NCBI RefSeq assembly: GCF_003018255.1
Contig: NZ_CP027440.1
Reading direction: 5' to 3' (one strand)
DNA from: Escherichia coli
GTDB lineage: Bacteria > Pseudomonadota > Gammaproteobacteria > Enterobacterales > Enterobacteriaceae
Length of the DNA stretch: 64,000 nt
Part shown: positions 62,987-64,000 of the stretch, in pieces
Layout: every line of letters starts with the position of its first letter
How positions within the stretch are numbered: the stretch's first letter is position 1
Made by a program: the position numbers and the translations under genes
Notes under the pieces: model-generated
The model's input: the letters and a program-made list of their open reading frames with translations, nothing else
Database searches by the model: none
What the model was told of the DNA's origin: nothing

Positions 62987-63168
62987 GCCTGTCCCAGCGC
63001 CGCCTCCTCAGAAAAGAGTCGGCGCTGAAATTCTCCTTTCTTTCTGGAAAGCGCCTCGCATAATCTGAAGAAAACCAATGTAATACGCTCATCTGGATTG
63101 TTACCGGTAGATGCCCGGCGTATAGCTGATTCCATTATTCAACGCAGCGCCATATAAAGGGACAGATA

Positions 63169-64000
63169 ATGGAATCGCTCTCAGAGAGAACCTCAACAGG
63201 CTACCAGCAAATCCACGACGGTATTATTCACCTGGTCGATAGCGCCCGGACGGAAACGGTACGTAGCGTTAACGCGCTGATGACCGCGACATACTGGGAA
63301 ATTGGCCGACGAATTGTCGAATTTGAACAAGGTGGCGAGGCCAGGGCTGCGTATGGTGCGCAGCTAATCAAGCGACTATCAAAGGATTTAAGTCTAAGGT
63401 ATAAGCGTGGGTTCTCTGCAAAAAACTTACGCCAAATGAGGCTTTTTTACCTCTTTTTTCAACATGTTGAAATTCGCCAGACAGTGTCTGGCGAATTAAC
63501 ACCATTGGGAATTCCGCAGACACCATCTGCAGAATTCCCATCGGCAAAGATTTGGCAGACGCTGTCTGCCAAATCTTTCCCCCTGCCCTGGTCCACCTAC
63601 GTCCGTTTACTTTCCGTTAAAAACCCTGATGCCCGCAGCTTTTATGAAAAAGAGACGCTCCGCTGTGGTTGGTCTGTCCGCCAGCTAGAGCGGCAAATTA
63701 CGACCCAATTTTATGAGCGAACACTACTGTCACATGACAAATCAGCCATGCTGCAACAACACGCTCCTGCCGAGATGCATATTCTTCCGCAACAGGCGAT
63801 ACGCGATCCCTTTGTGCTCGAATTTCTGGAGTTGAAAGATGAATACTCAGAATCTGATTTTGAGGAGGCGCTGATCAACCACCTGATGGATTTCATGCTG
63901 GAACTTGGGGATGATTTTGCCTTTGTTGGTCGGCAGCGAAGGTTACGCATTGATGACAACTGGTTTCGGGTCGATCTGCTGTTTTTCCACCGCCGTTTAC
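63169..64000 (+). CDS. DUF1016/YhcG-like PDDEXK-nuclease-family protein (partial; 3' end beyond window)
   Basis: Own translation from ATG about 63169, open to window end: MESLSERTSTGYQQIHDGIIHLVDSARTETVRSVNALMTATYWEIGRRIVEFEQGGEARAAYGAQLIKRLS...PWSTYVRLLSV...IRDPFVLEFLELKDEYSESDFEEALINHLMDFMLELGDDFAFVGRQRRLRIDDNWFRVDLLFFHRRL; absent from track because it has no stop in the window. Confidence 0.7.
   Translation, partial: MESLSERTSTGYQQIHDGIIHLVDSARTETVRSVNALMTATYWEIGRRIVEFEQGGEARAAYGAQLIKRLSKDLSLRYKRGFSAKNLRQMRLFYLFFQHVEIRQTVSGELTPLGIPQTPSAEFPSAKIWQTLSAKSFPLPWSTYVRLLSVKNPDARSFYEKETLRCGWSVRQLERQITTQFYERTLLSHDKSAMLQQHAPAEMHILPQQAIRDPFVLEFLELKDEYSESDFEEALINHLMDFMLELGDDFAFVGRQRRLRIDDNWFRVDLLFFHRRL
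63471..63577 (+). repeat. Three consecutive hairpin-forming palindromic units inside the DUF1016 coding sequence
   Basis: aattcgccagaca-g-tgtctggcgaatt (perfect 13-bp arms); ggaattccgcagac-acc-atctgcagaattcc (14-bp arms, 2 mismatches); aagatttggcagac-gct-gtctgccaaatctt (perfect 14-bp arms); coordinates approximate. Confidence 0.8.

What the first reader, a model, noticed from the sequence alone, without database searches (positions are those of the whole stretch)
63471..63577. Three tandem hairpin palindromes embedded in-frame in the DUF1016 (YhcG-like) gene
Within about 107 bp of coding sequence there are three inverted repeats with 13-14 bp arms, two of them perfect, all sharing a GCAGAC / GTCTGC core and an AATT-containing flank. 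Each unit encodes a variant of the peptide I-x-Q-T-x-S-x-x (EIRQTVSGE, IPQTPSAEF, IWQTLSAK). From what I recall of DUF1016 proteins, this region normally carries one such segment just before the conserved W-S-x-Y-V-x-LL motif, so the arrangement looks like an in-frame expansion of a palindromic unit, or an in-frame miniature palindromic insertion. Perfect 27-31 bp palindromes are rare inside ORFs. They could act as recombination or slippage hotspots, a protein-binding site, or an intragenic RNA structure.
Basis: partly seen in the sequence, partly recalled or inferred. Interest (0 to 1): 0.5.

Follow-up and report, generated by a model that had tools for sequence, protein, structure and literature searches.

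The report
Conserved hairpin palindrome inside YhcG genes
The three palindromes in E. coli yhcG are real, and they are tandem copies of a hairpin-forming DNA element found at the same spot in the coding sequence of almost every gene of this widespread nuclease family; the element is kept at the DNA level, and its purpose is unknown.

Summary
Window 63471-63581 holds three palindromes 39 nt (13 codons) apart, in frame in yhcG (DUF1016_N + YhcG_C PD-(D/E)XK nuclease; PADLOC candidate defence gene PDC-S02).

The array is not a dispersed element. It occurs once per E. coli genome, on chromosomes only. It varies in copy number (1, 2 or 3 units). Its 78/80-bp deletion alleles match the published yhcG amplicon sizes of the LSPA-6 typing scheme for O157:H7.

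The new result is that the unit is ancient and family-wide. In about 150 DUF1016 genes from many bacterial phyla, archaea and phages, a 12-13-bp stem with a 3-nt loop sits just 5' of the codons for the W-S-H-Y motif.
- The arm sequences differ between genes but stay complementary at all 12 pairs.
- Codon choice is bent to the pairing.
- One synonymous loop position is always a purine.
- The peptide I-x-Q-T-x-S-[GA]-[EK] is the translation of the palindrome.

G:T wobble pairs are not favoured and the loop constraint is strand-symmetric, which argues for DNA rather than mRNA. E. coli also carries a fourth, non-coding copy just after the stop codon, outside the window. Function is unknown. A selected DNA hairpin and a self-maintaining palindrome kept by template switching remain close rivals. 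I found no prior description.

The parts
63169..64000 (+). 5' 832 nt of yhcG (DUF1016_N + YhcG_C PD-(D/E)XK nuclease). The gene runs off the window end; the full gene is 1128 nt in the near-identical locus L001.
   Evidence: Translation; annotation of a 99.9%-identical record, gltD-yhcG-nanQ; Pfam PF17761 E = 3.5e-42 and PF06250 E = 1.6e-56; PADLOC PDC-S02 E = 3e-136.
63471..63581 (.). Array of three hairpin-forming palindromes with a 39-nt (13-codon) period, in frame. It encodes residues about 101-138 of YhcG.
   Evidence: family D1, spacing 39 and 39; three hairpins, z about -10; covariance-model hits only here in 64 kb.
63471..63497 (.). Unit 1: perfect palindrome AATTCGCCAGACA-G-TGTCTGGCGAATT. 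It folds as a 12-bp stem with a 3-nt loop AGT and encodes (E)IRQTVSGE(L).
   Evidence: DNA fold -13.1 kcal/mol, z = -8.1; model hit E = 2e-10. The AF2 model places this peptide in a low-confidence segment, pLDDT below 50.
63506..63540 (.). Unit 2: imperfect palindrome TGGGAATTCCGCAGA-CACCA-TCTGCAGAATTCCCA (core 63510-63536). It encodes (G)IPQTPSAE(F). On the + strand both stem defects are C:A mismatches, which become T:G wobbles on the - strand.
   Evidence: DNA fold is -12.9 kcal/mol on the + strand and -15.4 on the - strand. Model hit E = 1.5e-5. K-12 has G instead of A at the closing pair, which gives a 3-nt loop.
63543..63581 (.). Unit 3: GGCAAAGATTTGGCAGAC-GCT-GTCTGCCAAATCTTTCCC (perfect core 63549-63575; 18-nt arms with one mismatch). 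It encodes (K)IWQTLSAKSF, directly before PLPWSTY.
   Evidence: -15.8 kcal/mol, z = -8.2; model hit E = 1.3e-9. AF2 predicts a helix at residues 125-136. Rearrangement breakpoints in BL21-type and RM14721-type strains lie at its two ends.

Best explanation
The three palindromes are tandem, in-frame 39-bp copies of one ancient element. That element is a hairpin-forming palindrome with a 12-13-bp stem and a 3-nt loop R-S-Y closed by C:G. In the YhcG clade the consensus is (G)ATT-nnn-CAGAC-RSY-GTCTG-nnn-AAT(C). It is embedded in the coding sequence of nearly every DUF1016/YhcG nuclease gene, just 5' of the codons for the conserved W-S-H-Y motif.

Shown: the element is maintained at the nucleic-acid level. 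The two arms change together, synonymous codons are chosen to pair, and one loop base is constrained at a synonymous site. The peptide I-x-Q-T-x-S-[GA]-[EK] is its translation.

Shown: Escherichia expanded it to three coding copies, plus a fourth non-coding copy 13-15 nt after the stop codon. Recombination or slippage between copies gives 1-, 2- and 3-unit alleles, deletions and rearrangement breakpoints.

Inferred: it is a selected, structure-forming cis element that acts as DNA (a hairpin or cruciform that either strand can form) rather than as mRNA. Its arms are kept matched by replication template switching, which homogenises the arms and inverts the spacer.

Not shown: what the hairpin does. 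The candidates are control of expression of a potentially toxic nuclease, or a ligand or target of the gene's own product.
For: Position. In 130 unique homologues, the strongest palindrome of the whole gene lies within 150 nt 5' of the WSH motif in 112. The loci were collected by protein similarity only, from many phyla, archaea and phage contigs.

Codon choice. The mean best-palindrome score is 10.6, against 5.3 after synonymous-codon shuffling. 112 of 130 genes have p < 0.05, and in 80 none of 200 shuffles reaches the observed score. The Ser codon after the centre is TCT in 93 of about 100 cases, against about 20% gene-wide.

Covariation. Over 129 units, 92.5% of cells are paired, against 70.6% in shuffles. 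All 12 pairs show changes on both sides. 319 cells have double changes against 88 expected, and the score is 0.548 against 0.149 (0 of 500 shuffles). Controls with the partner slid by 1-3 columns score 0.04-0.12. Core sequences differ completely between subfamilies yet remain palindromic.

Loop. The pair next to the centre does not covary (AT 64, AC 32, GT 23, GC 13), so the loop is 3 nt. Its first base is a purine in 102 of 102 Thr codons (ACA 75, ACG 27, ACC/ACT 0), although 45% of Thr codons in the same genes end in a pyrimidine.

DNA rather than mRNA. Stem mismatches are G:T 13, A:C 27 and other 54, so there is no wobble tolerance on the sense strand. All three stem mismatches in the E. 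coli alleles are A:C or C:A on the sense strand. The loop pattern CRSYG is its own reverse complement, and loop triplets occur in reverse-complement pairs.

Pairing kept outside coding sequence. The fourth copy after the E. coli stop codon shows a compensatory change between alleles, TGC/GCA to TCC/GGA. Other extragenic copies lie next to DUF1016 genes.

Retention and specificity. The model hits all 80 genome loci and 62 of 66 viral loci at the expected position, and almost nowhere else in 560 kb. The model was partly trained on these loci; the window hits are independent of it.

Turnover in close relatives. The first unit of syntenic Enterobacteriaceae orthologues reads CGCC/GGCG, GTGC/GCAC, CTGC/GCAG and CCGC/GCGG.

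Template switching that homogenises inverted-repeat arms and inverts spacers, including in coding DNA, is documented (PMC8794818, PMC8604942, PMC7202029).
Against: - There is no functional or experimental evidence of any kind, and no partner is identified.
- A neutral, self-correcting palindrome explains most of the same data: perfect arms, no wobble, arm extensions that differ by lineage, and persistence in dead gene fragments.
- In E. coli the majority allele carries a synonymous change that breaks the closing pair of unit 2, and the K-12-type allele carries an A:C mismatch in unit 1. Both are widespread.
- Deletion alleles lacking two units, and frameshifted or IS-disrupted genes, are common.
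- Copy number ranges from 0 to 5 across the family.
- The units used for the pair counts were picked as palindromes, and the sequences are phylogenetically related, so the shuffle statistics are not probabilities.
- The A:C over G:T excess (27 against 13) is weak.
- The peptide may itself be under protein-level selection. Unit 3 is predicted to be a helix, and the motif persists where the palindrome is weaker.
Confidence: 0.45

Rival explanations
1. Self-maintaining palindrome with no function. A quasi-palindrome that arose once in the ancestral gene is kept perfect by replication template switching. A mutation in one arm is either reverted or copied to the other arm, and spacers flip. Coding constraints limit which states survive. 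The tandem units are neutral in-frame duplications in a permissive linker.
For: - There is no G:T wobble preference, and most stem mismatches are neither wobble type.
- Many stems are perfect, with arms that extend to lineage-specific lengths of 9-19 nt.
- The variable triplet turns over quickly among close relatives.
- Loop triplets occur in reverse-complement pairs.
- Hairpins persist in non-coding remnants whose flanks no longer look like DUF1016: L087 (five units, all spacings multiples of 3) and L180.
- Units 1 and 2 fall in a low-confidence, probably disordered segment of the model.
- Copy number varies freely, and deletion alleles are common.
- The mechanism is documented, including in coding DNA (PMC8604942, PMC8794818, PMC7202029).
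Against: - Retention is near-universal across a family diverged to about 30% identity, with no comparable palindrome known in other families.
- The first loop base is a purine at a synonymous site in 102 of 102 cases. Pairing and template switching do not explain this directly.
- The CAGAC/GTCTG core is kept even in units that encode disordered linker.
- Mismatches persist across large E. coli clades, so correction is not fast.
Confidence: 0.33
2. An mRNA hairpin. The structure acts in the transcript, for example on translation speed, mRNA stability or processing, or attenuation of a toxic nuclease.
For: - The element lies in a transcribed coding region in a fixed frame; the centre is codon position 1 in 128 of 134 units.
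- The predicted RNA fold is very stable (-65.2 kcal/mol, z = -10.3).
- A further copy just after the stop codon sits where a 3' stem-loop would.
Against: - G:U pairs are not favoured. G:T is 13 of 94 stem mismatches, fewer than A:C at 27.
- The E. coli mismatches are all A:C on the sense strand.
- The loop constraint is strand-symmetric.
- No U-tract follows any unit, and the terminator scan finds nothing at the array.
- No Rfam family matches above threshold.
Confidence: 0.12
3. A dispersed miniature palindromic element (like RPE, MITE or REP) that inserted in frame into yhcG.
For: - The palindromic unit is of the right size and is translated in frame.
- A few extragenic copies exist next to DUF1016 genes.
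- 17 of 41 pattern matches in viral contigs had no tblastn hit to DUF1016.
Against: - There is one place per E. coli genome and none on plasmids.
- No other hit occurs in the 64-kb window.
- The position relative to the protein motif is the same across the whole family, so the element is inherited with the gene.
- Several of the 'no hit' viral sites are DUF1016 remnants, and at least one (L198) looks like a generic terminator hairpin. About 15 chance matches among generic hairpins would be expected, by my own rough estimate.
Confidence: 0.03
4. A purely protein-level repeat, for example a linear motif Q-T-x-S, whose DNA palindromy is incidental.
For: - The peptide motif is widespread in the family and persists where the palindrome is weaker.
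- Unit 3 is predicted to be helical and to pack before the WSHY helix.
Against: - Synonymous-codon shuffling destroys the palindromes.
- Codon usage is strongly skewed at the Ser, Thr and Gln positions.
- Distant subfamilies have unrelated peptides (SHALRD, CYTLCS, LVSLIR, VQQLVA) that are still encoded by palindromes.
- A non-coding copy keeps its pairing.
Confidence: 0.02

Closest known systems
Quasipalindrome / template-switch mutational hotspots (Ripley model; E. coli QP reporters, PMC7202029; coding-sequence and RNA-stem cases, PMC8604942 and PMC8794818)
   Same: Short inverted repeats whose arms are homogenised and whose spacers invert in single events. This gives apparent multi-base compensatory changes without G:U intermediates. 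It is seen here as perfect arms, reverse-complement loop pairs and no wobble excess.
   Different: The known cases are individual, recent events or hotspots. Here one palindrome is retained at one position of a protein family across bacteria, archaea and phages. It also carries a loop-base constraint that the mechanism alone does not predict.
Rickettsia palindromic elements (RPE): palindromic repeats inserted in frame into ORFs (from my own knowledge: Ogata et al., Science 2000)
   Same: A palindromic DNA unit translated as part of a protein, tolerated in a surface or linker region.
   Different: RPEs are 100-150 bp, present in many copies per genome and inserted in many unrelated genes. This unit is 25-30 bp, occurs at a single locus per genome and is bound to one gene family at one position.
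yhcG locus of the LSPA-6 lineage typing scheme for E. coli O157:H7 (PMC3514354, PMC8733641)
   Same: The same polymorphism. The 78-bp in-frame deletion allele (O157:H7 Z903) and the 80-bp frameshift allele, which lacks a further 'AT', match the published 394-bp and 392-bp amplicons.
   Different: The typing papers I read report only amplicon sizes and the 2-bp deletion. They do not mention the palindromic units or their conservation. The 39-bp MLVA locus CVN001 is a different locus: its forward primer is absent from the window.
Integron attC sites
   Same: A structure-conserved, sequence-variable imperfect palindrome in which pairing rather than sequence is kept. attC sites function as folded single-stranded DNA.
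   Different: attC sites are 57-141 bp, have conserved R/L boxes and extrahelical bases, lie between cassettes and need an integrase. None of these features was found here, and the element lies inside an ORF.
Type III toxin-antitoxin RNA repeats (ToxIN-like; from my own knowledge)
   Same: Tandem repeats of about 36-39 nt associated with a nuclease gene implicated in phage defence.
   Different: ToxI repeats lie upstream of the toxin gene, are not palindromic hairpins of this kind and act as RNA. Here the repeats are inside the ORF and the mismatch spectrum argues against RNA. This is an analogy only.

Membership tests
DUF1016 / YhcG family (host gene) | DUF1016_N (PF17761) followed by the YhcG_C PD-(D/E)XK nuclease domain (PF06250) | tested here: met
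   PF17761 residues 19-184, E = 3.5e-42; PF06250 residues 208-360, E = 1.6e-56. RefSeq annotates the gene as yhcG.
PADLOC PDC-S02 (candidate phage-defence gene) | Match to the PDC-S02 profile HMMs | tested here: met
   PDLC04807, E = 3e-136, over residues 8-370. This is a candidate family only; defence activity has not been tested.
Variable-number tandem repeat | Head-to-tail units of constant period whose copy number differs between strains | tested here: met
   Period 39 nt. Proteins of 349, 362 and 375 aa carry 1, 2 and 3 units. TRF itself reports nothing because the units are only 70-74% alike.
Dispersed palindromic elements (RPE / MITE / REP-BIME) | Many copies per genome, in unrelated genes or intergenic regions | tested here: not met
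   Median of 1 place per genome, at most 2, chromosome only. No other site in 64 kb. Confined to DUF1016 genes and their flanks in 560 kb.
Dispersed palindromic elements (RPE / MITE / REP-BIME) | Presence/absence relative to orthologues, with a clean 'empty site' | tested here: not met
   The syntenic orthologues examined and nearly all homologues carry at least one unit at the same position. Only the number of units varies.
Rfam RNA families | Score at or above the gathering threshold of a curated covariance model | tested here: not met
   the best matches score 21 bits or less, against gathering scores of 34-100.
Intrinsic (Rho-independent) terminator | G+C-rich stem-loop followed by a T/U run | tested here: not met
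   no terminator-like site at 63471-63581. The tails are AACACC, CCCATC and TTTCCCCC. The fourth, post-stop copy is followed by TTTAAAA, which is only weakly T-rich.
CRISPR array | Repeats of 23-50 nt separated by unique spacers of similar length, non-coding, usually with cas genes nearby | tested here: not met
   The spacers are 12 nt, the array is translated in frame, and the repeats are 70-74% alike.
Quasipalindrome maintained by template switching | Arm homogenisation and spacer inversion seen as single multi-base events on a phylogeny | tested here: inconclusive
   The patterns are compatible, but no ancestral reconstruction or rate measurement was possible.
Structured cis-element under selection (DNA or RNA) | Covariation that preserves pairing beyond what the coding sequence requires | tested here: met
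   Caveats: the units were chosen as palindromes, and the sequences are related.
Structured cis-element under selection (DNA or RNA) | A demonstrated effect of the structure on a molecular process | not testable with these tools
   This needs recoding, binding or probing experiments.

The most novel reading that the evidence does not exclude
The hairpin is a nucleic-acid ligand of the DUF1016 nuclease itself. It would be a cis-encoded recognition or auto-inhibitory element, built into the open reading frame of a widespread candidate phage-defence nuclease and sometimes repeated beside it. The protein would bind or cut it to control its own activity or expression, and the specificity of hairpin and protein would co-vary between subfamilies.
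Probability: 0.12. Interest if true: 0.85.

Novelty: new variant of a known kind. Interest (0 to 1): 0.62.

Why it matters
DUF1016/YhcG is a very large PD-(D/E)XK nuclease family of unknown function. A search of 1.84 billion cluster representatives found 24,775 proteins at E of 0.001 or better. The family is found in defence islands, type I restriction-modification operons, integrative elements and phages.

A 12-bp hairpin that covaries inside the coding sequence of nearly all members would be one of two things. It could be an unrecognised cis element tied to how these nucleases are controlled or what they recognise, which would give a direct experimental handle on the family. Or it could be an unusually clear natural example of a palindrome that perpetuates itself by template switching and dictates a conserved peptide. 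That second case would caution against reading covariation and 'conserved motifs' as evidence of selection.

Locally, the result explains the yhcG size polymorphism used to type E. coli O157:H7, and why yhcG is a recurrent site of deletion and rearrangement.

Tried and rejected
- Tandem Repeats Finder found no array, because the units are too divergent. The period comes from the repeat finder.
- The Rfam scan found only sub-threshold chance matches.
- NCBIfam gave no family. PDB sequence search gave no homologue.
- Foldseek of the AF2 model against the PDB gave only weak matches to generic PD-(D/E)XK nucleases (Cas4-like, MGME1, EndoMS), all with E above 1e-3. They say nothing about the hairpin. 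The model itself is mediocre, with mean pLDDT 63.
- I suspected the array might be the 39-bp MLVA locus CVN001. Its forward primer is absent from the window, so I rejected this.
- The first attempt to fetch homologous loci with a very diverse alignment failed, because it had no conserved stretch. A narrower alignment worked.
- In one search I used wrong coordinates for L002. This was redone.
- Promoter and terminator scan: nothing at the array.
- I considered and dropped a -1 frameshift signal. The TTTTTT run upstream of unit 1 is E. coli-specific and absent from homologues.
- I considered and dropped LexA and MetJ boxes, whose spacing does not fit.
- I considered and dropped tyrosine-recombinase core sites. 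A protein site would not need the variable triplets to be complementary, and different units in one gene have different triplets.
- The pattern scan of viral contigs for extragenic copies gave 17 of 41 sites without a DUF1016 tblastn hit. Some are gene remnants and at least one (L198) looks like a generic terminator hairpin. This did not establish an independent element.
- Literature searches found no paper containing both DUF1016 and hairpin. Four papers contain both yhcG and palindrom*, and none is titled on the subject; I opened three of them for their yhcG or DUF1016 passages and found no mention of the palindromes.
Full report
**1. What is in the window**

Positions 63471-63581 contain three palindromes.
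- Unit 1: AATTCGCCAGACA-G-TGTCTGGCGAATT (63471-63497), perfect.
- Unit 2: AATTCCGCAGA-CACCA-TCTGCAGAATT (63510-63536), one mismatch. It extends to 15-nt arms over 63506-63540.
- Unit 3: GATTTGGCAGAC-GCT-GTCTGCCAAATC (63549-63575), perfect. It extends to 18-nt arms with one mismatch over 63543-63581.

Starts are 39 and 39 nt apart. The units lie in frame in an ORF that begins at ATG 63169 and runs off the window. They encode ...HVEIRQTVSGELTPLGIPQTPSAEFPSAKIWQTLSAKSFPLPWSTYVRLL....

The segment folds into three separate hairpins. As RNA the energy is -65.2 kcal/mol (z = -10.3); as DNA it is -44.5 kcal/mol (z = -10.8). Each hairpin alone has z between -6.7 and -9.3, on either strand. The core pattern occurs nowhere else in the 64 kb.

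**2. The gene and its E. coli population**

The ORF is yhcG, lying between gltD and nanQ. It has DUF1016_N and YhcG_C PD-(D/E)XK nuclease domains and matches the PADLOC candidate defence family PDC-S02.

The 161-bp three-unit segment is present in 3966 of 5426 complete E. coli genomes. It occurs once per genome (at most twice) and never on plasmids. 3430 genomes cover at least 80% of it. It is therefore not a dispersed repeat.

Copy number does vary.
- Escherichia proteins of 349, 362 and 375 aa carry 1, 2 and 3 units, with several different junctions.
- O157:H7 strain Z903 has an exact 78-bp in-frame deletion.
- Strains RM9975 and 08_4358 lack a further 'AT' (80 bp in all) and are frameshifted.
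- These alleles correspond to the 394-bp and 392-bp yhcG alleles of the LSPA-6 typing scheme (PMC3514354 and PMC8733641).
- BL21-type strains are truncated exactly after unit 3. Strain RM14721 has IS1 abutting the start of unit 3.

The 39-bp MLVA locus CVN001 is a different locus.

**3. Orthologues**

The syntenic orthologues differ in unit number and in how well the arms pair.
- Salmonella enterica has one perfect unit (ATTCCGCAGACACTGTCTGCGGAAT), followed by a degenerate segment.
- S. salamae and Citrobacter koseri have one unit with a mismatch.
- Pseudocitrobacter and a divergent E. coli allele (strain M160133) have two units.

The variable triplet of the first unit differs in almost every lineage yet mostly stays complementary: CGCC/GGCG, GTGC/GCAC, CTGC/GCAG, CCGC/GCGG. 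The three-unit array is therefore an Escherichia expansion of a unit native to the gene.

**4. The unit is family-wide and is a nucleic-acid feature**

Protein searches showed the motif I-x-Q-T-x-S and its variants, in 0 to 2 or more copies, before the W-S-H-Y motif in diverse representatives. I then fetched DNA for 80 homologues from genomes of many phyla and archaea and for 80 more distant ones from viral contigs. Both sets were chosen by protein similarity only.

Almost every gene has a palindrome with 11-16-nt arms at that position. In distant subfamilies the core sequence is completely different but still palindromic. Examples are GTCACGCACTGCGTGAC, ATTCTCGTATCACTGATACGAGAAT and CAATTTGCTACACACTGTGTAGCAAATTG.

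In numbers:
- In 112 of 130 unique genes, the strongest palindrome of the whole gene lies within 150 nt 5' of the WSH motif.
- Synonymous-codon shuffling halves the score (10.6 against 5.3). 112 of 130 genes have p < 0.05.
- On 129 aligned units, all 12 stem pairs show changes on both sides. 92.5% of cells are paired against 70.6% in shuffles, and the covariation score is 0.548 against 0.149 (0 of 500 shuffles). Slid controls score 0.04-0.12.
- A covariance model built from these units finds the three window units, which were not in the training set, at E = 2e-10 to 1.5e-5, and nothing else in the window.
- The same model hits the expected position in all 80 genome loci and in 62 of 66 viral loci. 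These hits are partly by construction.

Rfam has no such family. I found no paper that links DUF1016 or yhcG to a hairpin or palindrome.

**5. Anatomy**

The pair next to the centre does not covary (AT 64, AC 32, GT 23, GC 13), whereas pairs 2-12 are 92-99% Watson-Crick. The structure is therefore a 12-13-bp stem with a 3-nt loop closed by C:G. The centre base is C or G and is codon position 1 in 128 of 134 units.

The first loop base is the third position of a Thr codon. It is ACA 75 times, ACG 27 times and ACC/ACT never, although 45% of Thr codons in the same genes end in C or T. The following Ser codon is TCT in 93 of about 100 cases, against about 20% overall.

The loop pattern C-R-S-Y-G is its own reverse complement. 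Loop triplets occur in reverse-complement pairs at similar frequencies: ACT 33 and AGT 28, AGC 9 and GCT 12, GGC 7 and GCC 5, ACC 23 and GGT 10.

Multi-unit genes in many taxa share the 13-codon period.

In the AF2 model, units 1 and 2 (residues 101-126) have pLDDT below 50. Unit 3 forms a helix (residues 125-136) before PLPWS. The model is only moderate, with mean pLDDT 63.

**6. DNA or RNA?**

Stem mismatches at pairs 2-12 are G:T 13, A:C 27 and other 54. There is therefore no tolerance of sense-strand G:U, which an mRNA structure would predict.

The three stem defects in the two major E. coli alleles are all A:C or C:A on the sense strand. Unit 2 folds better on the minus strand (-15.4 against -12.9 kcal/mol). 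With the strand-symmetric loop, this points to a DNA-level feature, meaning a hairpin on either strand or a cruciform, or to a purely mutational process. The A:C excess is weak and has not been corrected for phylogeny.

**7. Copies outside the coding sequence**

E. coli has a fourth hairpin of the same family 13-15 nt after the yhcG stop codon: GAATTCTGCAGACAGTGTCTGCAGAATC at L001 4310-4340. That corresponds to about window 64309-64339, beyond the window end. The divergent allele has GAATTCTCCAGACACTGTCTGGAGAATC, which is a compensatory change plus a flipped loop centre.

Other cases:
- L087 has a non-coding array of five units upstream of its DUF1016 gene. All spacings are multiples of 3, which suggests a decayed gene fragment.
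- L099 has a near-identical second copy at the 5' end of the ORF. L014 has an intergenic copy identical to a unit of another subfamily. L142 has a small copy after the stop codon.
- A scan of viral contigs for ATTNNNCAGACNNNGTCTGNNNAAT gave 41 sites, 24 of them in recognisable DUF1016 genes. Of the rest, some are remnants (L180, L181, L205), at least one (L198) looks like a generic terminator hairpin, and L195 is a pair next to a serine recombinase gene.

**8. Interpretation**

Three things are shown.
- The element is inherited with the gene family.
- Pairing is maintained beyond what the coding sequence requires.
- The E. coli array is a local, unstable expansion.

Two explanations fit almost equally well.

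(a) A selected DNA-level structural cis element. This is favoured by near-universal retention, apparent uniqueness to this family, the purine constraint at a synonymous loop site, conservation of the core in units that encode disordered linker, and pairing kept in non-coding copies.

(b) A self-maintaining quasi-palindrome. Template switching homogenises the arms and inverts the spacer (PMC8794818, PMC8604942, PMC7202029). This explains the perfect arms, the lack of wobble, the variable arm extensions, the rapid concerted turnover, the persistence in dead fragments and the free variation in copy number.

I give (a) 0.45, with template switching as the mechanism that keeps the arms matched. I give (b) 0.33, an mRNA structure 0.12, a dispersed mobile element 0.03 and a purely protein-level repeat 0.02.

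No function has been demonstrated. The most novel reading that the evidence does not exclude is that the hairpin is a ligand or target of the nuclease itself.

**9. Verdict**

The 'in-frame expansion' reading is right and the 'inserted dispersed element' reading is wrong.

The E. coli polymorphism is already used for typing. The family-wide, covarying hairpin inside the coding sequence appears to be undescribed and is moderately to highly interesting.

Noticed in passing
Outside the window: L001 4310-4340, about window 64309-64339 by extrapolation; also L004 3770-3800 and L005 3795-3825: A fourth hairpin of the same family lies 13-15 nt after the yhcG stop codon, in the spacer between yhcG and nanQ. 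Two E. coli alleles differ by a compensatory stem change and a flipped loop centre. It is absent downstream of the Salmonella and C. koseri orthologues.
   Followed up: partly
window about 62987-63168, with the homology break near 63041: In this strain gltD is followed directly by yhcG, with a 182-nt spacer. K-12 has yhcE (interrupted by IS5) and yhcF directly upstream of yhcG (L004), and its similarity to the window starts only at about 63041. The window strain therefore appears to lack the gene block that lies between gltD and yhcG in K-12.
   Followed up: no
L003 about 3575 (BL21/Rosetta); L007 about 3000 (RM14721); L006 about 3000 (strain 4/2-1): Independent disruptions of yhcG. One is a truncation exactly after unit 3, next to a transposase remnant. 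One is IS1 abutting the 5' arm of unit 3. One is an IS629 fragment plus a group II intron about 70 nt upstream of unit 1. The hairpin bases coincide with rearrangement breakpoints.
   Followed up: partly
L181 4660-4830 and 5980-6150; L205 10480-10660: In a low-GC viral contig, a pair of hairpins plus about 100 bp of DUF1016-like sequence is repeated directly 1.3 kb apart. The sequence after the hairpins looks like a frameshifted DUF1016 (EFKLSC** followed by ...ARNFYEIEA). This could be a gene interrupted or duplicated at the hairpin.
   Followed up: partly
L195 9938-9985: Two adjacent hairpins of the same consensus lie immediately beside the start of a 572-aa ORF that resembles a large serine recombinase. 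There is no DUF1016 similarity anywhere in the locus. This could be an attachment-site region or a remnant of a target gene.
   Followed up: no
L182 5813-5837; L185 1209-1233: A perfect hairpin of the same consensus (ATTTAACAGACANTGTCTGTTAAAT) lies about 65 nt upstream of an ORF that looks RhuM-like. RhuM is another accessory gene family reported, like DUF1016, as enriched next to inverting type I restriction-modification genes (PMC9881135).
   Followed up: no
L087 116-320: A non-coding array of five hairpin units lies about 0.8 kb upstream of a DUF1016 gene, right after the stop of an upstream gene. All unit spacings are multiples of 3 (36, 48, 48, 42).
   Followed up: partly
K-12 region upstream of yhcG (from the literature; not in the window's strain context): A stationary-phase ncRNA, G0-10703, is reported divergent from and antisense to the yhcG 5' region, with a 128-bp overlap (PMC7967276). 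It does not overlap the hairpin array.
   Followed up: no
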